Part shown: positions 15,432 through 49,245 of the stretch, piece by piece
Layout: the number at the start of each line of letters is the position of its first letter
Position numbering within the stretch: the stretch's first letter is position 1
Assembly: GCF_030684315.1 (NCBI RefSeq)
Contig: NC_081401.1
Span: 2,676,582-2,740,581 of the forward strand
From: Stegostoma tigrinum
Lineage: Eukaryota
Length of the DNA stretch: 64,000 bases
Direction: 5' to 3'
Notes under the pieces: model-generated
Told to the model about the DNA's origin: nothing
The model's database searches: none
Seen by the model: only the letters and a program-made list of their open reading frames with translations
Position numbers and translations under genes: made by a program

Positions 15432-15501
15432 ATGGAGTACCCGATGATCTTACAGATCGAGTGCATTTACTATCCCATACTTGCAGCTGTTGGTGTAATT
15501 G
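15432..15501 (+). CDS. GPR139/GPR142-like class A GPCR copy A, coding exon 1
   Basis: aaaATGg start; MEYPMILQIECIYYPILAAVGVI+G; donor G|GTAAGA at 15502 (phase 1). Confidence 0.9.
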
Positions 15502-16440
15502 GTAAGAGTGTCATTCCAGTGTTTTTAAAGAAAGATAACACTTAACTGTACTCTTATGTTTCTGTTTGAAGTAAAACATATTGCTGGGCATTAACCATTT
15601 CTGACGCAAACCTTTCTGTCAGAGACTGAAGCAAAATTTCTTGATTTTGCTTATATCTACTAAAGAAAGTCGAGTTTATAAGCATTCTACACGACGTTAA
15701 ATTCAGAAATAAAGCATTTGTTCTGAGAACTCCCCTTTGGTTGATACTGCAGTGGGAATTGGATGAAAATTATTTGAATTGGAAGATAAATATCCTTCAG
15801 GGATCCATGAATTTTCGATTGAAATTGCATGCATGACGTGACGAGATGGCAATGTAACCCACGAAATGATTATCTTTTTGGGTAATAGTATTTCGTATGT
15901 CTTGCGATTGCGATACGCTCATGTACCTATCTGTTGTTTGTGATCCACTGAATATGTTCTCATGTGGCACAGTTTTGACTGACTCAAATCTGAATACAGT
16001 GAACAGCACAGCATTATTATTCTTTATTGTGTCTTCATAAACTGTGATACAGAGGAGGTTAAATTCACAAGCATCAGGCAAGCAATTTCATCTTTCTTTT
16101 CCGCAGATGCAATTGATGATTTGTGTTGTTATGTTCGTTACGTTAATATTCAGTCTCCACACTATAAGTTGCTTGGTACAATTTAATTATATAAAATAAT
16201 AGTTGGAATTATCTTCTGCAAGGTTAATAAAAATCTGAGGAATTGGGTCGACAGTTGATTGCATGCAGAAGCTAACATTTTGTACAATTGTCATTTGTGG
16301 TTAATAATACTTGCTGCATTTCACATGAGGCTTATAAAAACACTGTCATGTTGTTTGATTTTGTGCCCCTGGGCTTTTTAGCTACCAGAAATTTTCATAT
16401 GATTTCCACTCGAATATTGATAAAGTAGGCTGAGCAAATA

Positions 16441-17572
16441 CAACAGGCTAGGAAATCAAAAAACTGGGAAGGCTACAAAAACAAACGGAGTATAACAAAG
16501 AGAGAAATAAGGAAGGAGAGGATGAAATTTGAAGGTGGGCTAGCCAGTAATATTAGAAACGACAGTAAAAGTTTCTTTCAATACATAAGAAACAAACAAG
16601 AGGCAGAAATAGATATTGGGCTGCTCCAAATTGATGTTGGAAGGCGACTGATAGGAGATAAGGAAATAGCTGAATAACTTTAAAAGGACATTGCATCAGT
16701 TTTCACAGTGGAAGACGTGAGTAGTATCCCAAAAATTAAGGAGAGTCGGGGGCAGAGGTGAGTATGGTAGGCATTACAAAAGAGAGAGTGCTAGAAAAGC
16801 TAAAAGTTCCAAAAATTGATAAATCTCCTGGCCCCGATGGGCTACATCCTAGAGATATGAGGGAGGTGGCTGAGGAAATTGTGGAGGCTTTGGTTGTGAT
16901 TTTTCAAAAGTCACTGAAGTCTGGAAAAGTAGCATTGGAAAATCACTGTTGTAACACTCTTGTTTAAGAAAGGATCAAGATAAAAGATGGAAAATTATAG
17001 GCCGATTAGCCTAACCTCGGCTGTTGGTAAAATTCTAGAATCCATTGTTAAGGATTAGATTTCTAAATTCTTGCAAGTGCAGGGTTGAATTAGAACAAGT
17101 CAGCATGGATTTAGAAATGGGACGTCGTGCCTGGCAACCTCTTAGAATTATTTGAAGAGTTAACATATAGATTAGACCAGGAAAACAGAGTGGATGTTAT
17201 ATATCTAGACTTCCAAAAGGTTTTTGATAAGGTGCCCCATGGGAGGCTGCTTAGTATGGTGAGGGCCCGTGGTGTTCAAGGTGAGCTACTGGCTAGGATT
17301 AAGAAGTGGCTGTCTGACAGAAGGCAGAGAGTTGGGATAAAAGGCTCTGTTTTGGGATGGAAACAAGTGGTGTCCCGCAGGGTTCAGTGTTGTGGCCGCA
17401 GCTGTTCACTTTATATATTAATGATCTGGATGAAGGGACTGGGGGTATTCTGGAGAAGTTTGCCGATGATACACAGATAGGTGGACAGTCAGGTAGTACT
17501 GAGGAGGTGGGGAGGCTGCAGAGAGATTTAGACAGTTCAGGAGACTGGTCCAGGAAATGGCTGATGAAATTC
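16441..17572 (+). mobile_element. Internal CR1 ORF2 fragment in the GPCR A intron
   Basis: KSPGPDGLHPR, NYRPISLTS-like, VDVIYLDFQKVFDKVPH, GVPQGSVL, KFADDT; ends at WLMKF with no 3' tail. Confidence 0.9.
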
Positions 17573-17763
17573 ATCTGCTTGCTGTTTTTATATTTATATT
17601 CATTTTGTTTTCTTAGATTTGTGTTGTTTATGCTTGGATTATATATCACAATAACGTTGTTTTGATTGATGTATAGCAATTGGTGTGTTCTTGTTATCAT
17701 TGATATATGCTTTGTAGCAGCAGCCTAAAACAATGCGGTAATGTTCTGAAATTTTTCTTTCAG

Positions 17764-18668
17764 TTAATGTAGTGGCGATGATAATCTTGAGTCGAAGAAA
17801 CTGTGGCCTCTCCAAATGCATCACTTGCTACTTGTTCGCAATGTCAGTATCAGATCTAGTGCTCGTCATTTTTGATGTTTTACTGAACAGAATTAACAAC
17901 ATTCATTTCCCAGTTACATTCTTGCACATCACTCCTTTGTGTGCTCTCAGAATTTGTCTGCTCCTTATGGCCCTGGACAATTCTGTTTGGTTCACAGTTG
18001 CTTTCACCTTTGATCGGTTTGTAGCTATTTGCTGTCATAATCTTAAGTCAAAGTACTGCCACAAGAGAATGGCGACCACGGTTATAGGAGCCATAAGCAT
18101 TGTCAGTTGTTTATGTTCAGTTCCCTGGTACTTTGTATTTGCTCCTTCTTTTGTTGAAGATAATGTGCCATGGTTTTGTATCTTAACACCAGAATACCAT
18201 AACGCACTGTTTTGGAGAGCTTATGAGTGGATTCAAAGTATTTTAACACCTTTGCTTCCAATCATATTGATTCTGGTGTTCAACATTCTCACTGTCAGGA
18301 ATGTGATCGTGAGCAATCGTGCGCGCCTGCGTCTCCGGGATTATGGAAATGGAGAGAGCAAAATCGATCCAGAAATTGTAAACCGTAGAAAATCCATTAT
18401 TTTACTCTTCACTTTATCTGCTAATTTTATCGTGTTGTGGATGCCAAATATGGTACATTCTTTTGGCTGGCAAAATGTAAATTATAACTATGAAGACAAG
18501 ACAAATAGTGATCCGATATTTGTTTTTCAAGAATTTGGATTCATGCTGCAACTTCTTTGCTCTTGCACAAACACATGCATTTATATACTGACCCAGTCAA
18601 AATTCAGGGAGGAGTTAAAGAATGCACTGAAATATTCATTTCATATAATTGTTAATTTATGCAAATAA
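17764..18668 (+). CDS. GPR139/GPR142-like class A GPCR copy A, coding exon 2 (spliced product 324 aa, 7TM, intact)
   Basis: Acceptor ttttctttcag|TT completes V before N1.50. TM2 LFAMSVSDL, TM3 SVWFTVAFTFDRFVAIC (DRF), TM4 SVPWY, TM5 LLPIILILVFN, ICL3 RLRLRDYG, TM6 FIVLWMP, TM7 CTNTCIY, helix 8 SKFREEL. 70+905=975 nt open frame. Confidence 0.93.
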
Positions 18669-18744
18669 ACAAAGTGAACTGCCCTGCAGTTGGAGCTGTG
18701 TTCATTCCTAAAAAAAAACAGCCATTTCATATTTTATTTGAATG

Positions 18745-19470
18745 TATCTGTCGTGCTTGTTGACGGATACTTGAACGTGGCAGCACAGATTAGAAGGATG
18801 GCTAAGAAGTCCCAAGAGGCACTTTCCGTTAACATTTGTAACTTGGATTCTAAGAGCAGCAAGGATACGTTAGAGATGAACAGGACTTTGGTTAGGCTAC
18901 AGCTGGAGAAATGTGCATTGTTCTGGTTACTGCAATATTGGAAGGATATCATTGAACCAGAAGGTGTGCAGAATAGACTCACCAGGATATTTGTTAGTCT
19001 GAAGCATTTCAGCTTTAAATAGATGTTGGAAAAAAAACTCAGTGGTTCTCATTTGAGTAGGCAACGTTGAGGGGGCACATCATTGTCCTGTAGAAGATAA
19101 CAACGGGCATTGTCAGGATGAATATAAAAAAAAACTGTTCAATTGAGATGGAGAGTTAATAATGAGGTCAATTAAATTTTAAAAAGATTTTTCTCTCCTG
19201 GGATGGTGTGAAGCACGAATTCACTGCCTAGGATGGCACTTGATGTGTAAAACTTATAACACCTAAGATTTCCTTGAATAAGCACTCTAAGTTGCAGAAC
19301 TTTGAAAGAAAATAAAAGAAAATAAATGTCAGTAGAATTCGAAAAAAGAACATTGAAAGAAAAAAATTGGGTCAAAATGAAAGTGTATCTCGTGTCGTTA
19401 GAGATGTATTGTCGGCACACACATGTTGGGTCGATTGGCCCATTCTATTCTGTATGATTCTATGATTCTC
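18745..19470 (+). mobile_element. Old CR1 3' fragment downstream of GPCR A
   Basis: RTLVRLQLEKCALFW...KDIIEPEGVQNRLTR; decayed tail. Paralog at ~49325-50020. Confidence 0.75.
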
Positions 19471-19586
19471 AATCACTGTTCCGTCTTTGTGACAGGAAAA
19501 AAAAAATATTTAATGATATTGCTGTGTGATTTTCTGAATGGTTTCTAACTGTTTAAATCTCTGACACCTTTCTTAAAATTTAACTG

Positions 19587-20357
19587 CATGACCATTTCAA
19601 CTCCCCCATCCATTCTTCAGATGACATGTCCATCCTGGTCCTCCTGCAGTGCCATAATGATGCCACCCGTAGGTTGCAGAAACGCTACTCATATTCCGCT
19701 TGGGAACCCTGCAGCCCAATGGTATCAATGTGGATTTCACCAGCTTCAAAACCTCCCCTCCCCACACTGCATCCGAAAAGTAGCCCAGCTCATCCCCGCC
19801 TGCCTAACCTGTTCTTCCTCTGCCCTATCCCCTCCTCCCACCTCAAGACGCACCTCCATTTCCTACCTACTAACCTCAACCCGCCTGCTTGACCTGTCTG
19901 TCCTCCCCGGACTGACCTATCCCCTCGCTACCTCCCCACCCATACTCTTCTCTCCACCTACCTTCTCCTCGATCCATCTTCAGTCTGCATTCCCTTCTCT
20001 CCCTATTTATTTCAGACCCGTCTCCCCATCCCACTCTCTGATGAATTGTTCCGGGTGCTCCAGTTTCCTCCCACAGTCCAAAGATGTGCAGGCTAGGTGG
20101 ATTGGCCAATGCTAAATTGACCCTAGTATTCCGGGGTGTGTGGGTTATAGAGGGGTGGGTCTAGGTGGTATGCTCCAAGAGGGCGGTGTGGACTTGTTGG
20201 GCCGAAGGGCCTGTTCCCACACTGTAGGGAATCTAATCTAATCTAATCTAAAACGTCAGCTTTTGTGCTCCTGAGATGCTGCTTGGCCTGCTGTGTTCAT
20301 CCAGCTCCACACTTTGTTATCTTGGATTGTCCAGCATCTGCAGTTCCCATTATCTTT
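19587..20357 (+). mobile_element. Penelope-like 3' fragment specific to unit A, split by a SINE inside its hammerhead motif
   Basis: catttcaactccccc...ttgggaaccctgcagcccaatggtatcaatgtggatttcaccagcttc, then ctgatgaa|SINE|aaacgtcagcttttgtgctcctgagatgctgc. Empty site at ~50145. Confidence 0.85.
20046..20250 (+). mobile_element. 5'-truncated HE1-type SINE
   Basis: ccgggtgctccagtttcctcccacagtccaaagatgtgcagg...gggcctgttcccacactgtaggg with (aatct)n tail; same family as 22232-22553. Confidence 0.85.
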
Positions 20358-20869
20358 GCATAACTCTCTCGTTGGTTTGTGAATCCCAACTGATAATCAA
20401 CTGTCAGCCCAATTCATACATAGCATGTCATTCTTGGGTCTGCCATCGATTCTCTCAGATAAAGATTTTGTTAAATTATGTCGGGATAATTTACTTTTGA
20501 TCCGGAAATTTGTCGTATTGTCGTGTTCCTCTATTTATTTCTTCAACTTCAGATTTGCTGCATAGCATTTGGAAGGTTATCCCATCCCATGCGAACTGGG
20601 ACCTGTAACTTTTGCGGACACATCAGTCAGTTGTGATGCTGACAGATTGAACGCTTATGACGTTTATTGTGACAAGATCAATTTCCAATTCTTCAGCCAT
20701 GCATTTCAGCTCTGGCTGCCAAATGCAAGAGTCTGTGAAGCCTGAATGTTTGAAATAGGAAGGAGCAGAAGAAACTGGCTGTGATCTGGTGTACAGATGC
20801 AACTGGTCACGAATCTGGCTTCTCAATACATTAATGGATCATTACATATGTGGGTGGTCCAAATGGATA

Positions 20870-21170
20870 GAGTCGTAGACTAATACAACACAGAAACTAA
20901 CTATCCAGTCCAAACAGTCCATTTCGACCATACATATAAACTAAATCAGGCCCACCTATCTTTGTTTGATCTCTATAACTACAAAACATACTTATACCTG
21001 CATTTATCCAAACATCTTTTCATTGTTATAGCTATATCCACAACTATTACTTCCGCTGGAAGTTTATTCCACTCCCAAAACTCTTGTATATATATATATA
21101 AAAAATCCCCCCATGGTCTTTATAATTCTTAGTCTTCTCACCGAAACCATATGCTACCTTGGCTTGAAAT
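20870..21170 (-). mobile_element. Decayed CR1 3' end
   Basis: atagagtcgtagactaatacaacacagaaac...ccaaacatctttt...ttccgctggaagtttattccac resembles a minus-strand CR1 tail. Confidence 0.55.
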
Positions 21171-21439
21171 ATTGATAGGTTGGTGAGTTGGCGAGGATTT
21201 ACAAATTACCAAGTATTTTACATTATCCAGTGCATTAGCTGCAGTTGCTGGTAATCGAATGAAGTAGTCACTTGCCTGAGTTATATTCGCGATTACCCAG
21301 TCATGGTGGTGACTGCATATTTTGCTGGGAGGAGATATATGGTTGTTTAATAGTTGCGCAGTGCAATGACATGCTCTATGAGTGATATCAATGGATAGTC
21401 AGGACTGGTTAGGAGTGAAGACAGATAATTGGGGAGGGG

Positions 21440-21530
21440 TAACAACGTGTGGAGCTGGATGAACACTGCAGGCCATGCAGCATTAGAGGAGCATGAAGAC
21501 TGACTTTTCAGGCCTAGACCATTCTTCACA
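21440..21530 (-). mobile_element. Degenerate short Penelope-derived repeat
   Basis: taacaacgtgtggagctggatgaacactgcaggcc...gactgacttttcaggcctagaccattcttcaca. Confidence 0.7.
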
Positions 21531-22231
21531 AATGAATTTCAGAATTTGGGGTGAGTGCTGGTGGTAAATTGGAGGATTAACATCCGTTGCATTGTAGTTT
21601 TTATGAGGAATGCGACAATTTATTCATTCTGATCGGAGGACAAACATTTCAGATCAAGCTGCTCCCCATGTTCACTTGATAAGGAAGTTAGAGAGCAGAT
21701 GGTTTGTTTAGCTGCTTTCATTCTCTCAGCAACATCAATTCAAAACTTCAGATATTAATATGTGTAATATTTCAAAGTTAAAAACTTAGTTAATCATAGA
21801 ATCGCCACAATCTGACAACAGGCCCTTTGGCCAAACAAGTCCACACCCTCCCTCCGAGAGTATCCCACGCAGACCCATTCTCTACCCGCTCCCCCACCCC
21901 CGTGTATTTTCAAATGTCTAAGCCACCTAACTTGAACTTCCCCAGGCCCAGACGATTATTTGAAATAGGGTTTCCGGTAAAATGCATGCTTCAGCATAAT
22001 GAATCAGCTATAACTTGATTGACAGGTAGGGGGATGCCATTTGTAAAAGGCAAATTTATGTTGGCTATAATGTTATTCCATCGACTCTGGATTGTATGTT
22101 ATCAGCCTGAAATATAACATCAGACAGAGAACAACTGTCTTTGTTTGAAGAATTTATATGCCGGAACATTAAAGGCACCAGCATTATTCAAAATCTCACC
22201 TCGTTTAATTAGAGGAATGGATTCTAATGAT

Positions 22232-22553
22232 CAATTAGATTAGATCCCCTACAGTGTGGAAACAGGCCCTTTGGCCCAACAACTGCACACCGCCCCTTGA
22301 AGCATTCCATCCAGACCCATCCCCCTATCACCCACACACCCCTGAACACAACGGGCAATTTTAGCATGGCCAAACCACCTAGCCTGCACATCTTTGGACT
22401 GCGGGAGGAAACGGGAGCACCCGGAGGAAACACATGCAGACACGGGGACAATGTGCAAACTCCGCACAGACAGTTACCTGAGGCTGAAATCAAACGTGGG
22501 TCTCTGGCGCTGTGAGACTGCAGCGCTAACCACTGAGCCACCGTGCCGCCCAC
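22232..22553 (-). mobile_element. Full-length tRNA-derived SINE (HE1-type)
   Basis: Minus strand gggcggcacggtggctcagtggttagcgctgcagtctcacagcgccagagaccc (A-box, decayed B-box), body tctgtgcggagtttgcacatt, CR1-like tail with (atcta)n. Absent from unit B. Confidence 0.9.
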
Positions 22554-23850
22554 AATAGGTTGTATGAATGTAAAATGAAATTTAGTTTAAAATAGTATGA
22601 ATGCTGTTAAAACACGAAATTTACTTGTCTTATTTTGAATAGGTTTTGTTAAACGTTTCACATGCAAGAATTTTTTAACTTGCTCGTGTAAATCATTCAT
22701 AGCAAAATTTGTCTGTGTTACAATCAGCGCTTGTCCAGAATTATTTCCAATACAATGCCACTCAGCTTTACAACATATTTTAAGCCTGCAATTAACTTCA
22801 GTGCCAATGGGCTTCATAGGAAAAAAAATATCAGATTCCACTGCTTTATTTACCTGAAAATCTATCCAGAATTCTGTGCTGATGGAATGTCAGGTAAAAA
22901 TCATCATTTAAAGAAGGGAGGGAATTTAACTAAAATTTACCAATATGTCAATATCGGGAGAGTTTCGTGTGGAGTTGCTGGTTGTGAACTCAACCTCACA
23001 CAATTTTGGACTTGTCACTTTTTTTAGGATCATGGCCACTTCAACGACTTACCATTTATACCAGGTTGTCGTGAAATATTACATCACAAATTGCTGATGT
23101 GTCAATTTCAGGGGTGTTCCATGGAGTGGTTGCTTGCTGTGAGCCCTGTCTCACATAATTTCGCACTCTACACCTTTATTTTGTGCATGCTCGCACTACT
23201 ATACAGTACTGACCTTTCGTGGGATTTCCAGTCACAGAAATCTATTTAAAGCCCAACTCTTAATTCATTGCAAAGACAAGGTCAGGTTCGTACGTGTATT
23301 GCGTCCTTGCAGCACTGCCTGCCTGTTAAACTGTCAATATAAACACAGCTCTGAAGATGAAGCTGCAGAGGCATGACTGAATGTTTGAAAGATAAATGAT
23401 TTTTATGAGACTTGTGCTCTGAAAGACGTTTTCAACATCGGTCACATTGTATGTGTGGCATGATAATTCTGCACCACAATGATGTGCTAGATTGCAACTA
23501 TCTTGTTACAGCAGAACCACCTATATGTCATGATTTAAAATATTTATGGTGAAATCATTGGGCTGAATGTCCTTCTTCGCATCCCACATCTCATTGTCTT
23601 ATGATACAAAACGACATCTGTGTGGCTCTGTGTGATCACCTGTCGTGTGTATGAACTGTTCAAAAAGAAGAGGAGTCTCAGTGGTGGGGAGGAACTGTTA
23701 GAATAAAGGATCTGTTTCCGTGCTGAATGATGCAATGTTTCTGAAAGGACATGAACCACACCACAAAATCTTGCGTAAGACAAAATGACAGTATCCCCTG
23801 AGCAGTTCCTACAATGCAGGGCATCTTCCCACATATTCATTCAGTCTGCG

Positions 23851-23950
23851 ATAATAAAATGTGAGGCTGGATGAACACAGCAGGCCAAGCAGCATCTCAG
23901 GAGCACAAAAGCTGACGTTTCGGGCCTAGACCCTTCATCAGAGAGGGGGA
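23851..23950 (-). mobile_element. Short Penelope-derived repeat with intact minimal hammerhead core
   Basis: Minus strand CTGATGA-A-GGGTCTAGGCCC-GAAAC-GTC-AG at 23912-23941. Absent from the unit B counterpart (~56740). Confidence 0.85.
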
Positions 23951-25064
23951 TATCTGCAGTGGGTTCTAACTGCTAGTCACAGCATCAGATCGCCAGGTCG
24001 TTGGAACAATGCAGTGATTCTCAACAGATGGAATAGGAATTCAACTGGTAACTCTTCTGTCAAGTTCAATTTTAGAATAAGAGCCAGATTCTAACTAGAA
24101 TTAGGTCATTTTAAATAGTCGAGATAACATGGCATTCGCTGATAGAGCAGTAATCCACCTGTCAGGGGAAACCACTCATCTGCATGCAGTCTTAAATAGC
24201 ATCTTCATTAGGTTTTTGATTACTGAACGAAGAAGTTAACCTGAAGCATGACGCATGACAAGTCAAAACAAAGGAGATCTTCAAATGCACTGACAGTAAA
24301 GTGTAGCTTTTTTGGCATATTAGAGCCAGTGACAAAATAAGTCAAAATGTGAATGGTGACATTTGGGAATTGTTTCAGCAATTGCTCAAATTCCTCGAAT
24401 AACAGGGCAGAATGAAATTCATCAGGTTTCTGCTTTTTGGGTCTTTTCCTCGGGCATGTGCCATCTCTGCAGAGTTTAAGCTCCAACACATGTGCCAATG
24501 CTAGTCATACAAGGAATTGAGCCTACAATGAATGTAAAGAAGAAAACAATTAATTCTTTTCTGAAAGAAATTAACAATACTTCGGAGGCGGTATTCTTCT
24601 GGTGATGTCATTGAACTCAGAGTTCATAGGATGATGTTCTTAGGGCGCAGCGTGAAAGGTCAACAATGACATAGGCAACTCCTTCAGCTGTTTCCCCAAA
24701 ACGTCCCTTCCTAACAAATCCTGTTATTTCTGCTCAGAATCTGTGAAACACAATCGCTATGGCAATCCACTGTATTCTTCTTTTATTGCATTTGTTATTT
24801 CTGTACAAGTTTTGGTGTCAGCAAATCGTCCGGGGTCGCCATCTATTTCAAGTATTATTTGTCCATGTGTTGATCAGGTAATTTTAAGCCTGTTCTCAGA
24901 AACCCAAAAGAAATGCTGCTTCTGTTTCATTCAAAGCTACAACACTAAATCTTTAAAAACCTAACGAATGAAAAAAAGTTCTTTTTTTCCCCAAATCTTC
25001 TGCTTTTCACTGTGAAATCAACATCACTAAATCACAAAATGTATCTGTAGAAAATATGCTGAAA

Positions 25065-28885: not shown

Positions 28886-28889
28886 TGAC

Positions 28890-34520: not shown

Positions 34521-34822
34521 TCTGTGTGCAAACCAACATTTAATGAGGACTGTATTGTAGACGAGAATCAAACTGAAGTATTCAAGCACGATCTATTAAA
34601 AAAAAAACAAATACTCTGCAGTCAGCATTGGGATCTGATTGAAAGCTTCATATTTGACCATGGGCCATCATCGTGTATCGGAAGTTTGTTCCACATTCCA
34701 GGTATCTATCCTCCATAAATGCATATTGCAACATTATGATCGCATTTGACCCCAGTTGGTGTTGCACAGAAACTGTAATAAATGGCTTTTCACTGCTGTA
34801 GATAGGGGCCAGTGGCTCTCGA

Positions 34823-37800: not shown

Positions 37801-38049
37801 AGCAGCAAAAACTCTCTCTTTCAGTTCTGTGTGCTCAGCCACTTTAAACTCAAGGAGAACAAGATTGAGCCCCCCTCAGCAGGTGCTGCAAGTTGTGACA
37901 TTGATAAGTTAGAGACCATAAGTGAGAGAACATACTTTCAATCACCCCGTGACTTTTGCAACCCAGATGAATAACTCAGTACAAAAAAGAACTATTGAGG
38001 AGAAACTTTCAAATCTGCAAGAAGGAATGCAAGAATTCTTGCAAACAAA

Positions 38050-38300
38050 GAATTGTTTTCGCCATCCTCCCTCCACACAGCTATTGGTTTGTTGGATGAA
38101 GTGCCAGAGGAGGTGCCAGATGCAGGCTCAGTTCCAGAGTTTAACAGACGTTTGGATAAGCATATTAATAGGAAACGTTTGGAGGGAAATGAATCAAACG
38201 CATGCAAGTGGGCCTTGTTTAATTTGCAACAATAGTAAACAAGGACTGCTTGTACCGAACTGTCTGTTTCCATACTGTACAACTCTCTGTCTCTATCACG
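38050..38300 (+). mobile_element. CR1 3' tail fragment
   Basis: LDEVPEEVPDAGSVPEFNRRLDKHINRKRLEG and ctgtttccatactgtacaactct tail. Confidence 0.65.
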
Positions 38301-38869
38301 GCTGGAGACAACAACATCAGGGTTCACATCTCATCAACAATCACTGTGTATCCCAGAAGGATGTCAGAAAACAAATAGAAAGACCATGATACACCCCCAT
38401 GCACCCGCTCAGCAACACTTCGTGAGGTAAAGTATAAATAATGCAAATATACTTATCACTTACTCTTTCTGTCGCTGATTTCAAAACTTCATCGCCTTTT
38501 CGTTCCAATGGTCTGTGAGACCCAACAATACCAGCTCAGTCCTCGCCCCCTTCTTTTTAAAAATTCCAAGCCCCATCCCATCATAAAGAATTGTTTCGTC
38601 AATTCACTTCGACTGGCGATTTCAACTGTCCATCGGCCTGTACGACCAAACCCCTGCTTTAGTATGATCAGTTTCCTGCAAATGATGTGTATCACCCTGT
38701 AACTCCATACTTGCAGTCCTCTAACTTGACTATTAACATATGCCCACCAAACCCTCGCTACTCTCTTGCCCATTGCTCAAACCCTAGCGTCCAGTCCAAA
38801 TGTAGCTCACAGCTCGATCAGGAGGCTTTCCCTCATTGATGGTCCACTGTGCTTTCAACCTCAACCTAC

Positions 38870-38940
38870 TGTTCGCTCTTCATTGGTGCGGCACCTCCTG
38901 CCCCCCGCCCCCCGGTACTCTCTCTCCTGATTGGGTGCTG
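38870..38940 (-). promoter_or_regulatory. Candidate promoter (two CCAAT boxes flanking a GC box) upstream of the minus-strand pseudogene
   Basis: Plus strand ATTGG at ~38882 and ~38930, CCCCGCCC at ~38903. Confidence 0.35.
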
Positions 38941-39836
38941 CACCTCTTCTCTCCATCCCTTTCATTGCCACACAATGGCTTCTGTTAGCACCCTAATGTT
39001 CTGCATTGTTTATTCCCATCGATCATCCCCTATCAGTCAAATACTATTCCACGATGATTGACCTCATAGGGCGCAATTCACTCCTCCATGTCCCATCTTT
39101 CTTGCAGTTCGAAGGATGGATTGCTCTGCCCGAAACTTAAACTCTGATTTATTTCAGAAATCCTGAGAGACCTGCGAACTTTTCGAGCAATTTCCACTTT
39201 GGACCATGATTTACAGCGTCTCTCCTTCCTTCAGTTTCTATCCTGCCAAGCAACATCTGACTGTTTCCATGCATTGACTATCAGGGAAGTGCTACCATTA
39301 AGCTGAGACCAACTCTGTGACTCTGGATTGCCTCATCACCAATGATCCCATGAGAGTCGACTGTCGAGGCAGAAGTGTGGCAGCAACATGTTTACTGTCA
39401 AGGCAGGTTAGATAGTTCTCAGAATCATTCCCAATAACTGTCTCCCCGTGAGAAGTAGTATATATCAGCACAAGACAGTCACTGTTTACACACTCTCACC
39501 CACAATCACCAGATTGCATGTTTGAAGCAATTTGTCGAAGCCAATATGAACTCGAAAAAATTGGCTGCACCATAATCATCTTACTTTCTCTGAAAAACAA
39601 AGTTGAGAAGAAAAGCCATACCTCCAGCTTCTGTTAACACTTCCGTTACAGCCTGAACGCCTTGAGCAAGAAAATATTGTCAGTTTGCTGGGACATTAGA
39701 TCCAGGCTCCATATAAACCAACTGAACTACATTGCAGAGGCTGTTTGATGCCAGAAAAGATAGGGAGGGTCAATAGAAATGAATGTGGATTTACAACATG
39801 AAGGGTGGGAAGATTTCATCTTACTCCCTCACTTTT

Positions 39837-40471
39837 AGAACATAGAACATAGAACATAGAACAGTACAGCACAGAACAGGCCCTTCAGCCCACAATGTTG
39901 TGCCGACCATTGATCCTCATGGATGCACCCTCAAATTTCTGTGACCATATGCATGTCCAGCAGTCTCTTAAATGACCCCAATGACCTTGCTTCCACAACT
40001 GCTGCTGGCAACGCATTCCATGTTCTCACAACTCTCTGCGTAAAGAACCTGCCTCTGACATCCCCTCTATACTTTCCACCAACCAGCTTAAAACTATGAC
40101 CCCTCGTGCTAGCCATTTCTGCCCTGGGAAATAGTCTCTGGCTATCGACTCTATCTATGCCTCTCATTATCTTGTATACCTCAATTAGGTCCCCTCTCCT
40201 CCTCCTTTTCTCCAATGAAAAGAGACCGAGCTCAGTCAACCTCTCTTCATAAGATAAGCCCTCCAGTCCAGGCAGCATCCTGGTAAACCTCCTCTGAACC
40301 CTCTCCAAAGCATCCACATCTTTCCTATAATAGGGCGCCCAGAACTGGACGCAGTATTCCAAGTGCGGTCTAACCAAAGTTTTATAGAGCTGCAACAAGA
40401 TCTCACGACTCTTAAACTCAATCCCCCTGTTAATGAAAGCCAAAACACCATATGCTTTCTTAACAACCCTG
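39837..40471 (-). mobile_element. Young 5'-truncated CR1 LINE
   Basis: Uninterrupted 170-aa ORF2 C-terminus (LYKTLVRPHLEYCVQFWAP...FFTQRVVRTWNALP) and (agaacat)n tail at 39837-39863. Confidence 0.95.
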
Positions 40472-42639
40472 TTTACTAACTTTCTCTCTCCCCTTTTCTC
40501 CCTCCCCTTTTTCCTTGCCAGTCATTTCCCTCAAACTCTATCTCGTCTGACTGTTTATCCTTTTTTGATTCTTTCTTTTTCATATGACCGTCACACCCAC
40601 GACAGTCCCACTCCTTTCTGTCTTCAGACCCGCTACTATTTTAACCCATACATAACTCTTCCTTCTCTCCTTCTCTCTCCCTCCCCTTCTCTCTCTCTTC
40701 CCCCTTGTCCATAAATGTTTCACCAAGGTTAGGTTTCGACTTTTTGTTGGTTCCTATTAGTGATCTCCTCAAAAGCCCGTCTCCCAGTATCATCAAGGGT
40801 CTGGTTGAGGCGTGCAGCAAAATTAACCTGTCGACTGAGGACTGTTCCGAGTTAGCTCTGCCCAGGCGCTTTGCTGAATCATTGCCTAAACGGGAGGTAG
40901 GCTGCCTCACGCGTTGGAGATGCTGAAAGTGATGACGCCACTTGGGAGAGGTTGTATGCACCCTGTCCCACTAATCAACAAATGCCACATTCCCAGTTGA
41001 TCAGCACAGCCCCAGCCTTAGGAATTGGTGGAGATCAGGCTAAATATCATTTTCTTCTGCACTGAAATCATTTGGCACAACAGGGGCAGGGATAGTATTG
41101 GACTGGAGGAAAGACTGTCCCCATCACCAACGGGGACAGAATGGAACTAGATCCAGAATAAATCTCTCTCTAACCTCCTTGTGTGACATTGTCGTAAAAC
41201 AAGACAACACAGGGTTAGATGCACAGTAAAGCTTCCTCTCTCCTGACCACATTGTTCACTTCCAGGACACAACAGCCCATGGTTAGACATAGAATAAAAG
41301 TACCTCTGCAGTGTCAACACCAATCACTCCCGTGACATTGAAAGGATAGCATTAGATATCGAATATATTTACCTATACCCTGTCTCCATCTATCACGGAG
41401 CTTTATACTGGTTAAAGCAAACAAGCATAAAACCTTCTTCACCACGTTGTCTACTCGTGCGGACACTTTTAAGGAACCAGGATGTGTGAGTTAATCTTTC
41501 GGCATACCAAACAACTTCATGTCGATGGACTAAACAGCTTATAGAAAGCATCGTTTGTGCAATTGCTGGTTGATCCCGTTGGCTGACCATTCTTTTCTTT
41601 GCAGCTTTCCTCCCGTATCTTCAGGAAGCCAGAGAGCATTTTTTACAAACTTTGGTTTGGAACTGTAGTTTAATAATCTCTGAGTGGAAACTGAACCTAA
41701 TTCACATGAAGTAGCAATTAACTGCAGCCTCTGGGGGAGTGACATTATCTCACTTATATGTTGCCTGTTTTGCTTAAGAAGGATTTATCTCACAATGTCT
41801 TATCTGAGCGGAACAGGGCGAGCGCTGTGTCAAACCCAATACTGAGAAAGACTTACGATCCACCACAGAGAGCAAGGCTCGGATGAAATCTCAGAGAATT
41901 TTACAGGAATGGATCAGGACCTGGGAACAACACTCCTCTGGTTACAACATTGTATGAGAGCTTTTCCTACCAGCTGAACAACATTTATGAGAATCATCAA
42001 TAGATGAACGCAGAATCATCTACATATTGAACTGCTTTGTATCTGCAAAATTGTAATAATCGCCTTCTGGCTATTGTTCAAAACCAAATTAAGTGCTTTT
42101 CGTCAGTGACTGATGCTGTAAAATGTACAAGGTTTGTGGTTTTTGAGAAGGTTCTGTATGTAACAATGAAAAGTACTGACCACGGAGAATGGTACTAATG
42201 TTCTTTCAATGCACTCGTTCACAATGTTTCAAACAGGAATACTGACCTAATGTGAAGCAAGCCACATCATTCTTGAATTTCTAAAACTATGAATGTAAGT
42301 TTGCATGCGCAATTTTGTAAGTGTGTTGAACAAGACATAATCGAACACTATCACGTGGACTCTAAGATAATAAATTTTACAAAGTTTTCAACTTATTATT
42401 CATATGGCACCTTTACCAGGAGAAAGATAAACTGCATTAATATTAATGATTTAATTCGGGACTTTTTGATCACACACAGGAAGACACAGTAAAACAACTA
42501 ATCAAAAGGAAAAAAAAATGGAAACATCACAGCCATGATAATTGAGTAGATAACAAGGACTGCAAGTGCTGGAGAATCCGAGATTACAAAGTGTGGGGCT
42601 GGATGAATCCAGCAGATCAAGCAGCATCTTAGGAGCTCT

Positions 42640-43511
42640 AAACAGGTGAAATCGATCGGGTGTGTACTGGACTGGGTACAGGCCTGTGAGTCATCTTACA
42701 AAATATAATGACAGAAACCTGAACGGCCTGTTGTCTTCGATCCTTTAGACAATGATAACTTATTGGCCAAGGCTTAGTTTTGTTTTGTCTGCCATGCGTG
42801 AGGCTTTGCATTTCCTTCTCACAGCTATTGTCTCCCAAAACAACTCTTCCTTTCCAGGGTGTCTATTTCCATCAGAACACCTCGAACCGCATCTTCATGC
42901 TCCTGCATATTCTAATTACAAAACCAGTTTTGAACTTCCTGACACAGATTCCCCTGCAACTCCATCAGCCGAGTAAAACAGAAAATGTCTCGGAATTTAT
43001 GATGGCGTTGGATGCAGTATCTCTTAACCAAATCCGTCAACTCTTGAAATATTTTGATATCGGGTGCCTCAGGAATCAATAGGCTACTGATAACCATAGA
43101 TTTCCACGGGTTTACAAGCTATCAGTAGAGTTAGGCATTGTGTTTCATCTGCGCAAATGTCATTTGCCCAGAAAAAAAAAATAACACGTTATTTACACAC
43201 ATCGAGCCCATTCATTTCGGACGCTTCAAAATAATGGCATAATGCTAGAAATGTGCACCACCAGTCCTAAATGATTCTTCCCAGGGAATTTCATCATAAA
43301 CACATTTGTTTTTCTCACAAAGTCACCCTTTGTTTTAGCATGCATAGTACTTGTCAACAGTCCGTCTATACCAGAGCCAGCTTGCAAGGTGAACAGAACA
43401 TCTGAGAGTCCTGTCACTATCTGCAAGGTATGGCTTCCCGATCATGGCGGTTATTCTTAATCAATCAGGGAACTCACATTCTCTGAGGCCTGGCCGTCTG
43501 ACATTGTTGCA
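42640..43511 (-). mobile_element. Remnant of the Gypsy element in unit B (gag plus 5' LTR)
   Basis: LIPEAPDIKIFQELTDLVKRY; matches 10832-11860 and 12978-13040 without the CR1. Confidence 0.85.
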
Positions 43512-44026
43512 ATTTCTACACTAATATTAACCGGTACACACTGTGTCTGTTGTCCGAACTGATGGACAGACTCCACTCGTGCCGTGTGGCCGATGCAAGG
43601 GATTTGTGCCCTGCCAGTCAAAGAGGCGACTGACACAGCGTTACAGAATTACAGCGCAGTAAGGCCCCATCAGGAGGCCATTTGGACCATTGTTACAGCG
43701 CTGAGTCTATCCCCCAGAGCCAGCCTCTTGCCTTTTCCTCCAGTCCTCGCTAAATGAATATGTTTCCCCCCGTATCATCCTTACAGTTTTTGCAACGCTT
43801 TAAATCTTTGCCCATCTGTCGTTATGATTCATTTTACGGGCTGGAGAAGCTTTTCCCTGTCGAGTTCAAGTTCAAGCCACCGAGTTGACTATGTAAGATG
43901 GCAATTGGAATATTGGCCTCTATGCCAAAGAGAACAGTGTGAAAAACTAAGCTCCTCAAAGTACACAAAATACTAATGAGATCACTGCTGAAATTTATCA
44001 ATAGTTTAGCCCAATGATCAATGGAT

Positions 44027-44060
44027 GTATACATACATATATACATATACATATATACAT
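44027..44060. repeat. (TACA/TATA)n microsatellite within a unit B-specific block (~43597-44150)
   Basis: gtatacatacatatatacatatacatatatacat. Confidence 0.8.
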
Positions 44061-46043
44061 GACTCACGCGGATGATTTGTAGGCTTAATCAAGATTACTT
44101 GGAAATAAAGGGGTTAAGATCGGATTCGTGGAAAGAGATGTATGGAAGAGTTTTTTTTGTCAAATTCACTCGTGGGACATGGACATCTGTCTGGGCCAGG
44201 AGTTATTACCCATCCCTCATTTCTATACGTCCATTGTCTCCAAGAAGAAACATGTGAAACCATATTTAAATGTATTGGCACAGTTGTTCTGAACACACCA
44301 TGTTAAAATGTAACATTACAATCACATTGTATTTTTACGTTGCATCTTTGCTTGCGAACAGACAAATCGGTGAGTGACTGTCTATTGTTCCTTGAGTGTA
44401 AAAAGTCAATGAGACAAAATCTTTATCATTGTACGTGTGTTATTTTTTAATGCGAGAGAATGGAAGATAGTGCAGACAGGGGAGTGGTGTTGGCCGTGGT
44501 GGTGGTTGGAAGGTTTGTATTCTTAATCTGTCCAAAGAACTAACGTAAGGATCTCAAAGAAACCCGACAAACTATCCCAGTCAAATGTTATGAACTGGAA
44601 GTTTCACTTCTTTCTTACCCTTCTATGAATCTACTGGTCTTCATGAGTATTAACTCAAATTGTGGTTTGGGTTTCATTTTCAACATGTCGGTAGATCATG
44701 TCCAAATCCAATGCATTTCTCTGGTTACCTTAAAAATTGCTTAAAATTATTTCATTTCTCTACTAACATAAATATATTCTATCTAATCCTCGAGGCTGTA
44801 TTCTTAATATCGTTGAGTTAGTAGTGGAGCGATGATTCGATTTCTTCAATAATCATAGACTGCTTGTGGATTTCCAGTCACATCGATGCAAATCGTCCAA
44901 GGCTAAAACTCTTGGTGAAGGTCTTCCCGATGGCCTGATCAGTATTTGTCTGCGAAACTACAATAGAAGAGAACAACAAAACGACAAGGCAGACCGATGA
45001 TCTGCTTATTATCAACCCTCTTTGTTAGAACGTGGTATCTGCATATTGTGCACAACTTTGCACTGTAACTGTAGTTTCTATTAGAATAAAACAACCTTGA
45101 TGACTGAACTTAGAGACTGTGCAACAATTATTTGAGTAAGAACTGGATTGTGTAATTTTTAATTCACTATGATGTAAACAGCTCCACATATGTGATGGCG
45201 GGAGTGTTATCTGTGGAGAGATTGGGTTATTAGGATTATATTCAGTGGAGTTTCTAAGATTGTGTTGAGGGATCTGAAGACACCTTTAAAGTTCTTACAA
45301 TACTTAATAGTGCAGATACAGAAAGACCGTGCCTGATTGGTGGGAACAGCTGAACCAGGGGGCCACTGTACAAAGATAAGTTTTAGGGCGCTGAGGGCTC
45401 AGATGTCAAGAAATTACTTCACACAGGAATGATGAGTCACTGGAATTCTCTACCACGTGAAACTGTTAATCCAAAACATGAAAGACTTTCTTGAAAGATG
45501 TAAACATTTTAAGTACGAAGGAGATGAAAGTGTCTGGGCAGAAAGCAGTTTCATAGGACAGAGTTGGACAAATAGTTCTGAGGAACTGCCATCGGGCCCA
45601 AAACTTTAACTAGTTATTTTTTCCTTCACAGATGCTGCCAGGTCTTCTGACCTTTTCCAGCAACTTAGATTTGCTCCTGGCTCTATCTTCTCCTGTTCAT
45701 TGTTTTGAAGATACAGCACATGTTTTTTACTCTATGTCCCTGGGAGGGCCTTTCGACACAAGTTTTAAATAGTTTTCTTTTTTATTTCCACAAATTACAT
45801 ATAAATTATTCAATACATGATAAAATTTGGAGTCAGTGCATTTGATTATCTGAACAAAAAGAACTGTGGATGCTGCTTGATTATCTGCTTGCTCACGCTG
45901 CTCTAATTAAGTAATTTGTTATTCGACTAGATTTGTAGTCTCACTGGAGTTTAGTTCAATATAATAGGTAATTGCATTGACGATATGAATGTCTTTCAGC
46001 AGAAAGAATCATTGAGTCCACAACATCACAGCTTCTCCGGAAA

Positions 46044-49000
46044 ATGGAGTACCCGATTATCTTACAGATAGAGCGTATTTACTATCCTATACTTGCAGCT
46101 GTCGGTGTAGTTGGTAAGAGTATCAATCCACTGTTTTTAAAGAAAGATAATCCATGACTGTACTCTTATATTTCTGTTTGAAATAAAACACACTTGCCAG
46201 GCTTTATTCATTTCTAACGCAAATCATTCTGTCAGAGACTGAAACAAAATTTCTTGGTTTTGCATATGCCTACTAAAGAAAGTCAAGTTTATAAACATTC
46301 TACACGATGTTGAATTCAAAAATAAAGCAGTTGTTCTGAGAACTTCCCATTTGCAGATACTGCAGTAGAAATTGAATTTAAACAATCGTTGAATTGGATG
46401 ACAATTATCCTTAAATGATCCACGAATTTTCTATTGAAAATGAATGCATGACGTGACTGGATGCCAATGTTAGCCAATAGATGATTCTTTTTGGATAATA
46501 ATATTTTACAAGTCTTGTTATTGCGATACATTCATGTAGCTTTCTGTTGTTTGTGATCCACTGAATATGTTCTCATGTGGCACAGTTTCGGCTGACTCAA
46601 ATCCGAGTACAGTGAACAGCACAGCATTATCATTCTGTTTTGTGATTTCCTGAATTGTGACACAGAGGAGGTTAAACTCACAAGCATCAGGCAATTTATT
46701 TAATCTTTCTTTTCTGCTGACTCAATTAATGATTTGTATTGTTTCTTGGGTTAATATTCAGTCTCCACACTACAAGTTGTTAGGTACAATTTGATTGCAT
46801 GAAATGATTGTTGGAATTATCTTCTGGAAGGTTAATAAAGATGTGTTGAATTTGCTCGATGGTTGATTGCATGCAGAATCTAACATTTAGTGCAATTGTC
46901 ATTTGTGGTAAATAATACTTGCGTCATTTCACAAGAGGCTGACAAAAATGCTACATTTTTGACTGTCATTCAGTATGAATTTGTGTCCCTGGGTGTTTTT
47001 GCTGCCATCAATTTTCATACGATTTTCCACTAGAATATTGATAAGGCAGGCTGCGTAAATAAATAATGATCGTCATATCACTTTTTGAATTTACGATCAG
47101 AGTAAATGAAGGTTAATTCATGAAAGAGAATAGATTAATGAACACAGTAAGTGAATTTTCTCACAAGATTTGAGTTAAATATCTCAGTTTACGCCCTTCC
47201 AGAATTACAGTAATCTATGATAAAGTAGTCTTTATTTAATTAACACTTTTTTGTGTTTTCCTACGTTTTCTTTTCTATTCAGCAGATTTTCCCTGGCGCC
47301 GAAATAAAATAAAATTCGTTAATGCAGCAACGTTGATTTCTTCATCCAGAACTTTGGTGCATTTTACTTGGAAATCTGGTTCTTTGATTTCCTCCCAAAT
47401 AAAAAAAACAAAATGTCAGATCCAGCATTTTGCCCCAACAGGATTAGAGAATGGCTCTTTTATTTGATAATTGAAATCAAAAATAAAAAATAAATTGTAC
47501 TACAATTACTTTAATTTGTTCATTACCACGTGTCCTTTTATTCGGTAAGTTTAAGTTTTGTCCAGCTGGAGGTTTTGTTGCACTTTTGTATGTCTTATGA
47601 ACTATTAGGCATACCCATCTCCGCATTGCTGTGCACATGTTTCTGTCATTCCCCGACTTCCTGTCTGTCATTTCCAAAATCGATTCAAAACATATGGCGA
47701 ACATAAATGATGAGTTGTAAGCAGGGATCCTGGTCTACGACACAACTGATAAACAACGTAAAGATGTATTTCTCTTTACTGATACCTTTTAAACATGTTT
47801 CTTACTGTATTTGGTTCTGAAAAAATATGCTTATTTGATCATTAGATGAATATTCTTAGCATGCATGACATTTTACTCTCTTCATTTACATACAAATTGG
47901 GAGTTTGGTAAACATTAAAAAACAAACGGACAATTGTTTTCAGTGAAAACATAAAGCCTATTTTCAGCTTCTATCGGTGCAATAAAAGTTCTATTCTATA
48001 AGACTTTTGTACTTTAAGAAATTGTTTGGGATATGTTTCAAAATTTCAACAATCGACATGTGAATCAACAAGTAATGACACATATCTTTCCAAATTAAAA
48101 GTCAACACCTTTTGGATGTGAATCACTTGTCACATTCAATTTATTTGCTCTTTTCATATTTGCAATCATTTTGTTTACTTACCTTTGTGTTTTTAATTAC
48201 AAGTGAGGATTGGATTATATGTCAAAATAAAGTTGTTTTGACTGATGCATAGCAATTGCTGTGTTTTTGTAATCATTGATGCTTGCTTTGTAGCAGCAGC
48301 CAAAAACAATGTGGTGATGTTCCAGTTTTTTTTCTTTCAGTTAATGTAGTGGCGATGATAATCCTGAGTCGAAGAAACAGTGGCCTCTCCAAATGTATCA
48401 CTTGTTATTTGTTGGCAATGTCAGCATCAGATCTAATACTCGTCATTTTTGATGTTTTACTCAACAGAACTAACAACATTCATTTTCCAGTTACATTCCT
48501 GCACATCACTCCTCTGTGTGCTCTCAGACTTGTTCTGTTCCTTATGGCCCTGGACAATTCTGTTTGGTTCACAGTTGCTTTCACCTTTGATCGATTTATA
48601 GCCATTTGCTGTCATAATCTTAAGTCAAAGTACTGCCACAAGAGAATAGCGATCACAGTTATAGGAGCCATGAGTATTGTCAATTGTTTACGTTCAGTTC
48701 CCTGGTACTTCATATTTGCACCTTCTTTTGTTAAAGATAATGTGCCATGGTTTTGTATCTGAACACCAGAATAGCGTACAACACTCTTTTGGAGAGTTTA
48801 TGAGTGGATCCATAGTATTATGACACCATCGCTTCCAATCATATTAATTCTGGTGTTCAACATTCTCACTGTCAGGATTGTGATTGTGAGCAATCGTGCG
48901 CGCCTGCGTCTCCGGGGTTATGGAAATGTAGAGAGTAGAATCGATCCAGAAATTGTAAACCGTAGAAAATCCATAATTTTACTCTTCACTTTATCTGCTA

Positions 49001-49245
49001 ATTTTATCGTGTTGTGGATGCCAAATGTGGTACATTCTTTTGGCTGGCAAAATGTAAATTATAACTATGAAGACAAGACAAATAGTGATCCCATATTTGT
49101 TTTTCAAGAATTTGGATTCATGCTACGACTTCTGTGCTCTTGTACAAATATATGCATTTATATACTGACCCAGTCAAAATTCAGAGAGGAGTTAAAGAAT
49201 GCACTGAAATATTCATTTCATATAATTGTTAATTTATGCAAATAA
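46044..49245 (+). pseudogene. GPR139/GPR142-like GPCR copy B (exons 46044-46113 and 48341-49245) with two nonsense codons
   Basis: Exon 1 MEYPIILQIERIYYPILAAVGVV+G|GTAAGA; acceptor tttctttcag at 48340; exon 2 is 905 nt, as in copy A. TTA>TGA at 48760-48762 and TAC>TAG at 48772-48774; no frameshift. Confidence 0.92.

What the first reader, a model, noticed from the sequence alone, without database searches (positions are those of the whole stretch)
15432..49245. Tandem birth-and-death array of minimal GPR139-like receptors: candidate undescribed chemosensory/amino-acid receptor family
Seen: two tandem paralogs, one intact and one pseudogenised. They have almost no extracellular N-terminus (about 10 residues before TM1), a very short C-tail, DRF instead of DRY, NTCIY instead of NPxxY, and a phase-1 intron in the codon before N1.50. 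YYPIL, SVWFTVAFTFDRF and RLRLRGYG recall GPR139 (YYSLL, SIWITVPLTIDRY, FRLRGYS; from memory). Established: mammalian GPR139/GPR142 are single-copy and respond to L-Trp/L-Phe; amino acids are major aquatic odorants; cartilaginous fish have few canonical OR genes. Inference: tandem duplication, pseudogenisation and compact structure are what chemoreceptor families look like, so this could be a lineage-expanded sensory repertoire rather than a GPR139 orthologue.
Basis: partly seen in the sequence, partly recalled or inferred. Interest (0 to 1): 0.8.

Follow-up and report, generated by a model that had tools for sequence, protein, structure and literature searches.

The report
Shark-expanded orphan receptor gene family
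These two genes belong to a large, apparently unstudied family of cell-surface receptors that multiplied in sharks and rays from an ancestor that amphibians seem to keep as a single gene, and their fast-changing binding pockets make them candidate chemical sensors, although where they act is unknown.

Summary
Observation confirmed. Gene A (15432-18668) encodes an intact 324-aa class A GPCR; gene B (46044-49245) is a 93%-identical copy with two in-frame stops. Both lie in a ~30-kb tandem duplication; the window holds only these two.

They are unlikely to be GPR139 orthologues: human GPR139 scores 33.5 bits, against 115-130 for other GPR139-related vertebrate genes. All 220 named family clusters seen are chondrichthyan (20 species; at least 61 distinct paralogues each in Heterodontus and Heptranchias, a lower bound; the known olfactory total is 20-62 per genome). 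The sister group is an apparently single-copy amphibian/sturgeon gene (98/93 support).

That gene keeps GPR139-type pocket residues and is almost invariant there. The shark paralogues keep the G-protein face but diversify the pocket (16% of differences versus 0.6%) and turn it acidic. This fits a ligand-diversified sensor repertoire but argues against Trp/Phe sensing by gene A.

No expression or ligand data were reachable, so a chemosensory role is inferred; an immune/MRGPR-like role remains open. RefSeq labels the genes 'probable GPR139'; ten literature searches found no paper on the expansion.

The parts
15432..15501 (+). Gene A exon 1 (start codon, short N-terminus, most of TM1; ends in phase 1)
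   Evidence: matches the N-terminus of the full-length Stegostoma homologue P0002
15502..17763 (+). Gene A intron (GT-AG), carrying a LINE-type insertion at about 16441-17578 that B lacks
   Evidence: weak RVT_1 hit at 17115-17477, E 0.0065
17764..18668 (+). Gene A exon 2 (N1.50 to stop); intact 324-aa class A GPCR
   Evidence: 91% identical to a 324-aa Stegostoma tigrinum protein
46044..46113 (+). Gene B (pseudogene) exon 1
46114..48340 (+). Gene B intron (GT-AG intact)
48341..49245 (+). Gene B exon 2, with in-frame stops at 48760-48762 and 48772-48774 (ECL2) and no frameshift
254..31396 (.). First unit of the tandem segmental duplication (holds gene A); approximate limits
   Evidence: self-blastn
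33613..59199 (.). Second unit (holds gene B); 51484-56893 is inverted relative to 23693-30033
   Evidence: self-blastn

Best explanation
The two genes are a living and a recently dead member of a chondrichthyan-wide repertoire of compact rhodopsin-type GPCRs. The family grew by repeated tandem duplication from one jawed-vertebrate gene of the GPR139/142-related group, which survives as an apparently single conserved gene in amphibians and sturgeon. Mechanism: each paralogue binds a small ligand in the pocket between TM3, TM5, TM6 and TM7, since there is no N-terminal domain. W6.48 acts as the switch, and the nearly invariant ICL1, TM3 end, ICL3/TM6 junction and helix 8 couple all members to one shared G-protein pathway. 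Ligand tuning differs between paralogues. The pocket moved from basic in the sister gene to acidic (D/E3.37, D/E5.42), so the likeliest ligands are amines or basic amino acids/peptides from outside the body, read combinatorially by chemosensory cells (nose, taste buds, skin or gut). Shown: gene structure, expansion, sister group, pocket pattern. Inferred: ancestral pocket state, shared signalling, ligand class, external source, sensory cell type.
For: Expansion: 1751 clusters at E<=1e-5 among 2624 candidates (taxa seen only for the best 120, of which 118 are named chondrichthyan and 2 unnamed). 120 of 120 listed are chondrichthyan. Distinct named clusters total 220 in 20 species, with 64 Heterodontus and 66 Heptranchias (62 and 61 after merging at 95% core identity). 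Clustering: up to 9 and 7 clusters share one contig length, spread over 26 and 29 contig lengths (a proxy); single-species clades and 12 disjoint shark+ray clades, 4 of them at support >=0.94. Sister: 20 amphibian clusters from 20 species plus one sturgeon; family+sister 98/93; the alternative sister P0224/P0230 is rejected, p-AU 0.0004. Pocket (28 positions): entropy 2.22 versus 1.59 bits at other outer-TM sites (p=0.001), against 0.06 versus 0.49 in amphibian orthologues. In pairs 70-95% identical, 16.1% of differences between same-species paralogues fall in the pocket, 0.6% between amphibian orthologues, 9.6% expected if uniform. 54 different 8-residue pocket cores among 64 Heterodontus genes, 1 among 20 amphibian genes. 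Median pocket charge -2 versus +2. ICL1, ICL3 and H8 motifs kept in 195, 212 and 220 of 220. A/B dN/dS 0.31. Known olfactory repertoire of cartilaginous fishes: 20-62 genes despite many sensory neurons (PMC10869828, passages).
Against: No expression or ligand evidence at all. The catshark top-50 'brain and olfactory epithelium' list held no GPCR (PMC11979771, passage); this is weak, because V2Rs were absent from it too. Catshark olfactory neurons appear to be all TRPC2/Go microvillous cells with robust V2R expression (PMC10116579, passages), so the nose does not need another family. Putative Heterodontus-Heptranchias orthologue pairs show 10.1% pocket differences, about uniform (16 pairs), which relaxed constraint could also give. 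Pocket positions were assigned by helix numbering, without a structure model. Pair counts are not independent. Monophyly of the family alone is only 88/90. Immune and somatosensory GPCR families such as MRGPR and FPR show the same evolutionary signature (own knowledge).
Confidence: 0.48

Rival explanations
1. Innate surveillance repertoire (MRGPR- or FPR-like): receptors on leukocytes, mast-like cells or somatosensory neurons that detect microbial, parasite or damage-derived cationic peptides and amines.
For: The same signature (short N-terminus, clusters, variable pocket, fixed G-protein face) marks rodent Mrgpr and Fpr families (own knowledge). An acidic pocket suits cationic peptides. The whale shark paper notes that cartilaginous fishes lack MAS1 and its relatives (PMC8455134, passage), which leaves that niche open.
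Against: Ancestry lies in the GPR139/142-related group, whose characterised members answer to aromatic amino acids and W/F-amide peptides (PMC8557429, passages), not among chemoattractant receptors. No GPR139 term in the one small supplementary file (4,750 characters) of a nurse shark spleen single-cell paper, which is a very weak negative.
Confidence: 0.25
2. Internal metabolite or peptide receptors (gut, endocrine, sperm or reproductive tract) that diversified alongside endogenous ligands, as the protostome MIP/proctolin/FMRFamide receptor group did.
For: The closest characterised relatives are endogenous-ligand receptors (PMC7318219, PMC8557429, passages). Several subclades are shared by sharks and rays.
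Against: Over 60 paralogues with over 50 different pocket cores per genome, plus species-specific turnover and pseudogenes, exceed any endogenous ligand family I know of. An endogenous ligand should freeze the pocket among orthologues, as in amphibians (0.6%), whereas shark orthologue pairs show 10.1%.
Confidence: 0.13
3. Mostly non-adaptive: copies multiply by repeat-driven segmental duplication, and pockets vary because constraint is relaxed.
For: The duplication unit is about 30 kb of LINE-rich DNA. B died. Orthologue pairs show a uniform share of pocket change.
Against: Coding exon 2 is mostly 91-99% identical per 100 nt between A and B (one window 85%) while flanks average about 84%; dN/dS 0.31. 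Intracellular motifs are kept in 195-220 of 220. Paralogue differences are enriched in the pocket above uniform (16.1 versus 9.6%) and above neighbouring lipid-facing sites (ratio 1.22-1.65 in 200 of 200 subsets). The family is present in holocephalans, sharks and rays.
Confidence: 0.1
4. Plain GPR139 orthologue duplicated locally, as the RefSeq name suggests; a Trp/Phe sensor.
For: Human GPR139 is the best PDB hit, and databases name the homologues 'probable GPR139'.
Against: 33.5 bits to GPR139 versus 115 and 130 bits to other vertebrate genes. GPR139 is 70% identical between human and zebrafish (PMC7318219, passage). Gene A keeps 1 of 4 key residues; C3.25 and the ECL2 cysteine are kept in 212 of 220 but not aligned in GPR139.
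Confidence: 0.02

Closest known systems
GPR139 / GPR142 (human; PDB 7VUG)
   Same: Best solved-structure match (97 bits with the family profile, next 76). Short N-terminus, two coding exons (PMC7318219 says GPR139 has two exons), no P7.50, W6.48, similar TM1 and TM3 motifs.
   Different: Far more distant than other vertebrate relatives. Single-copy and conserved, against dozens of copies. F3.33, H5x43, R6.51 and N7x38 are not kept in gene A. The family has the TM3-ECL2 cysteine pair that the GPR139 alignment lacks, DRF rather than DRY (199 of 220), and an acidic pocket.
Amphibian/sturgeon GPR139-like gene (P0229 group; also named 'probable GPR139')
   Same: Sister group (98/93); 31% identical to gene A exon 2; shares the ICL3 DPE motif, the disulfide cysteines and the short N-terminus.
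   Different: One cluster per species in 20 amphibians; pocket invariant and basic, with F3.33, W6.48, K6.51 and N7x38 in 20 of 20.
GPR210A/B and a third subtype of Rinne et al. 2019 (PMC6504862)
   Same: Orphan subtypes beside GPR139/142 in coelacanth, gar and teleosts; they may be the bony-fish relatives found here (P0224, P0248 or P0229 groups).
   Different: The species table shown lists no cartilaginous fish ('shark' and 'cartilaginous' 0 hits) and no expansion is reported in the passages seen. Identity with my sequences could not be checked.
Vertebrate chemoreceptor families OR, TAAR, V1R/ORA, V2R, T2R
   Same: Works like them in evolutionary pattern: clusters, pseudogenes, variable pocket, fixed intracellular face. 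An acid at 5.42 (152 of 220) recalls the non-classical amine site of teleost TAARs (recalled, not from a call).
   Different: Not members by sequence: no OR, V1R or T2R Pfam hit in 130 proteins scanned, D3.32 in 0 of 220. Sensory expression untested.
Nematode srw and other invertebrate expansions from peptide-receptor ancestors
   Same: Precedent for a chemoreceptor family arising among peptide-type rhodopsin receptors (PMC3963977, abstract and passages). Atlas neighbours carry Srw.
   Different: Srw hit in only 2 of 130 proteins; an independent expansion.
MRGPR and FPR families (rodent expansions)
   Same: Compact class A receptors, tandem expansion, exogenous ligands (own knowledge).
   Different: Different branch of class A; neither is among the best 60 PDB matches.

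Membership tests
Class A (rhodopsin-like) GPCR | 7tm_1 domain; N1.50, D2.50, R3.50, P5.50, W6.48, N7.49/Y7.53 | tested here: met
GPR139 orthologue | High sequence conservation with human GPR139 and closest relative to it | tested here: not met
   33.5 bits to GPR139 versus 115-130 bits to other vertebrate genes; those score 53 and 70 bits to GPR139
GPR139 orthologue | Trp/Phe site F3x33, H5x43, W6x48, N7x38 (PMC5430874) | tested here: not met
   Gene A has L, Q, W, F (1 of 4). Counting R/K6.51 too, 0 of 220 family members have all five and 4 have four
GPR139 orthologue | Single copy | tested here: not met
   At least 61 distinct paralogues in each of two sharks
GPR139 orthologue | Tree placement with true GPR139/GPR142, and synteny | not testable with these tools
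   No GPR139/142 sequence was returned as a usable protein; no other intact host gene was found in the window
GPR210 (Rinne 2019) | Groups with the named coelacanth Ensembl proteins | not testable with these tools
   Those records could not be fetched; P0224, P0230 and P0248 stayed unnamed
OR / V1R / T2R | Family Pfam domains (7tm_4, V1R, TAS2R) | tested here: not met
   0 of 130 proteins at E<=0.01
TAAR / aminergic | D3.32 | tested here: not met
   0 of 220
Chemoreceptor repertoire (functional class) | Many clustered paralogues with birth and death | tested here: met
   clustering in other genomes rests on a contig-length proxy, and pseudogenes were seen only in this window
Chemoreceptor repertoire (functional class) | Pocket hypervariability with a conserved G-protein face | tested here: met
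Chemoreceptor repertoire (functional class) | Positive selection on pocket codons | tested here: inconclusive
   No homologue DNA available. 4 of 15 A-specific changes lie in the pocket (p=0.035, post hoc), 1 of 17 for B
Chemoreceptor repertoire (functional class) | Sparse expression in sensory cells; activation by external chemicals | not testable with these tools
   No expression resource reachable
Nematode srw | 7TM_GPCR_Srw profile match | tested here: not met
   2 of 130 proteins, gene A not among them

The most novel reading that the evidence does not exclude
An unrecognised vertebrate chemoreceptor family, independently recruited from the GPR139-related peptide/amino-acid receptor lineage, that in many sharks and rays equals or outnumbers OR, TAAR, ORA and V2R together. 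It would be expressed one receptor per cell in olfactory or other chemosensory epithelia, detect amines or basic peptides through an acidic pocket, and resolve the paradox of large shark noses with tiny known repertoires.
Probability: 0.35. Interest if true: 0.92.

Novelty: new variant of a known kind. Interest (0 to 1): 0.72.

Why it matters
Cartilaginous fishes are described as having the smallest olfactory repertoires among vertebrates (mean 43.8 genes, 20-62; PMC10869828), rare chemoreceptor gene births (PMC6368271) and a general paucity of GPCRs (PMC8455134). A family with at least 61 paralogues per genome in two sharks, hidden under an automatic 'GPR139' label, shows the GPCR-paucity view is incomplete whatever its function. 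If sensory, it adds a new chemoreceptor family to vertebrates; if immune, it is a shark counterpart of MRGPR/FPR. Either is testable at once with existing catshark and bamboo shark RNA-seq. The single amphibian sister gene also offers a tractable ancestor-like receptor for finding ligands.

Tried and rejected
Third copy in the window: none. Non-coding RNA: 0 Rfam and 0 tRNA hits. Frameshift in B: rejected, there are two substitution stops; sequencing error cannot be excluded without reads, but two separate stops make it unlikely. Sister relationship to P0224/P0230, which score higher by raw phmmer (130 versus 115 bits): rejected by AU test. Olfactory-type promoter motifs: an O/E-like palindrome at 15114 and 45737 and homeodomain-like sites are conserved upstream of both genes, but the strict EBF pattern is absent, the loose patterns occur 39 and 68 times in the window, and a possible splice acceptor just before the ATG could make them intronic; not used as evidence.

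Left open: no structure model was obtained, so pocket positions rest on helix numbering checked against the GPR139 alignments. Species and accessions of the unnamed 50%-identity representatives are unknown except where later searches named them. No tree includes true GPR139/142.

Literature: ten searches gave no paper describing the expansion; two searches were loose and listed only 30 of 6,910 and 15 of 2,043 papers. Supplements: whale shark paper, only an orthogroup labelled GPR142 with 70 proteins in 35 taxa (file 19 cut when stored); skate genome, no hit in 3 files, one of them a picture PDF that could not be searched; nurse shark spleen, no hit in 1 file. The catshark 'Sensory Shark' supplement could not be read and Hara 2018 is not held; both may hold expression data that bear on the claim. 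Subscription journals were not searched, so 'undescribed' is provisional.
Full report
Observation. The window is repeat-rich vertebrate DNA (about 42% GC, CpG-poor). Two related ORFs lie at 17742-18665 and 48280-49242. Splicing by canonical GT-AG sites gives gene A (15432-15501 + 17764-18668), 324 aa and intact, and gene B (46044-46113 + 48341-49245), of the same length, without indels, with stops at codons 164 and 168. The intron is phase 1 in the codon before N1.50. The genes sit in a tandem segmental duplication of about 30 kb with an internal inversion. The aligned upstream, exon 1 and intron segment is 84% identical, and exon 2 mostly 91-99% per 100 nt; dS 0.16, dN 0.049. Against the Stegostoma homologue, A and B carry 15 and 17 private changes, so B was under constraint for most of its life and died late (inference). 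No third copy is in the window.

What it is. Exon 2 matches Pfam 7tm_1 only. The homologue search found 1751 clusters at E<=1e-5 among 2624 candidates; of the 120 shown, 118 are named chondrichthyan 'probable GPR139' and 2 are unnamed. The best is a 324-aa Stegostoma protein at 91%, so the window is probably a carpet shark (inference). A profile of eight divergent proteins listed 120 of 120 chondrichthyan hits. Together this gives 220 distinct named clusters from 20 species, including Callorhinchus: 64 Heterodontus, 66 Heptranchias, 23 Pristiophorus, or 62, 61 and 21 after merging at 95% core identity. These are lower bounds, since only the top of each list was visible, and the taxa of the unlisted hits are unknown. 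143 of 220 are 315-330 aa long. Median paralogue identity is 56-59%. A FastTree of all 220 shows both single-species clades and 12 disjoint shark+ray clades, 4 at support >=0.94: old lineages plus continuing turnover.

Origin. The exhaustive search of 50% representatives put other GPR139-related receptors well above GPR139 itself: P0224 130 bits, P0229 115, P0253 86, P0268 70, against 33.5 bits for the human GPR139 chain. P0229 is a newt protein, with one cluster in each of 20 amphibian species and a sturgeon fragment (a word-seeded search, so other bony fishes may be missed). An IQ-TREE analysis of 54 chosen rows places the amphibian/sturgeon gene as sister to the family (98/93); the family alone has 88/90. 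Forcing P0224/P0230 as sister is rejected on a 25-row set (p-AU 0.0004). True GPR139/142 could not be included, so non-orthology rests on scores, copy number and residues. Rinne et al. (PMC6504862, passages) name orphan subtypes GPR210A/B beside GPR139/142 in bony fishes, with no shark among the species shown. Thiel et al. (PMC8557429, passages) place GPR139/142 as sister to protostome MIP/proctolin/FMRFamide receptors and infer an ancestral ligand with an aromatic C-terminus.

Pocket. Mutagenesis showed F3x33, H5x43, W6x48 and N7x38 to be needed for GPR139 activation, with R6x51 modelled as a polar contact (PMC5430874, passages). The amphibian gene has F, Q, W, N and K in 20 of 20. Gene A has L, Q, W, F and N, and no family member has all five. 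Over 28 pocket positions chosen from standard class A numbering, family entropy is 2.22 bits against 1.59 at other outer-TM sites and 0.80 at inner-TM sites; amphibian orthologues show the reverse, 0.06 against 0.49. At matched divergence (70-95% identity), 16.1% of differences between same-species paralogues are in the pocket (512 pairs), 0.6% between amphibian orthologues (170 pairs) and 10.1% between 16 putative shark orthologue pairs, with 9.6% expected if uniform (pairs not independent). Pocket charge is +2 in all amphibian proteins, median -2 in the family and -3 in gene A; D/E occurs at 3.37 in 178 and at 5.42 in 152 of 220. The intracellular motifs and the TM3-ECL2 cysteines are kept in 195-220 of 220.

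How it likely works. One signalling output with many inputs: a repertoire. The lack of an N-terminal domain points to small ligands, and the acidic pocket to amines or basic peptides; the parallel with D5.42 of teleost TAARs is recalled, not tested. A pocket that is not frozen even among shark orthologues points away from a fixed endogenous ligand. I put chemosensory use at 0.48, immune or somatosensory surveillance at 0.25, endogenous signalling at 0.13, drift at 0.10 and plain GPR139 orthology at 0.02. Nothing here shows expression. Against a nasal role, catshark olfactory neurons are accounted for as TRPC2/Go cells expressing V2Rs (PMC10116579, abstract and passages), and no GPCR was in the top-50 olfactory list of PMC11979771 (passage).

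Known or new. The genes are annotated automatically under a misleading name. Ten searches and term searches inside PMC11979771, 10.1101/2022.10.17.512540, PMC8455134, PMC10869828, PMC6368271, PMC12208981, PMC5207463, PMC7318219 and PMC3963977 (passages only) found no description of the expansion; PMC10529500 and PMC10115646 were seen only through supplement searches. Published surveys give 20-62 olfactory receptor genes per cartilaginous fish, rare gene births and GPCR paucity; those counts come from partly different species than my lower bounds. Unread supplements and subscription papers may already mention the family.

Verdict. A real feature. A new variant of a known kind: a lineage-wide expansion of an orphan GPR139-related receptor with the evolutionary marks of a sensing repertoire. 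Interest 0.72; 0.92 if sensory expression is shown (probability about 0.35 for the full novel case).

Noticed in passing
window 59300-64000 (+): Decayed endogenous retrovirus running off the window end: LTR-like stretch, primer-binding-site-like motif at 59986 (resembles a tRNA-Ser 3' end, recalled), broken gag/pol-like region, integrase core hit at 63631-63909 (rve, E 4.9e-9).
   Followed up: partly
window 12204-12989 (-), 39934-40521 (-), 16441-17578, 26347-26986: LINE (CR1/L2-like by recall) fragments; RVT_1 hits at 12204-12989 and 17115-17477. The copy in gene A's intron is absent from B.
   Followed up: partly
window 23693-30033 versus 51484-56893: Inversion between the two duplicated units; the segment looks like a decayed Penelope-type retroelement (by eye; no Pfam hit).
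   Followed up: no
window 15114-15390 and 45737-46000: Conserved upstream block (92% over 15204-15303) with an O/E-like palindrome, homeodomain-like sites and a possible splice acceptor about 44 nt before the ATG, suggesting a non-coding first exon further upstream.
   Followed up: partly
P0229, P0271-P0290 (amphibians, sturgeon): A conserved, apparently single-copy amphibian receptor mislabelled GPR139, with an invariant basic pocket that keeps GPR139's F3.33, W6.48 and N7x38: an orphan worth deorphanising; not seen in amniotes or teleosts.
   Followed up: partly
P0224, P0230, P0248, P0256, P0269, P0253, P0265: Further unnamed GPR139-related subtypes outside the family; several lack W6.48 but keep R6.51 and D7.36. 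Possibly the GPR210 subtypes and amphioxus relatives (guess).
   Followed up: partly
gene A, residues 90, 181, 253, 286: 4 of 15 changes private to the intact copy lie in the pocket (p=0.035, post hoc), hinting at retuning after duplication.
   Followed up: partly
P0018, P0021, P0023, P0025, P0295-P0297, P0370: Long database models (412-556 aa), some with profile scores above full-length members, suggesting mis-joined neighbouring genes; some members carry other names (CCR3-like, GPR15-like, uncharacterized), so counts by name will undercount.
   Followed up: no
window 6462-6612: Assembly gap of 151 N.
   Followed up: no
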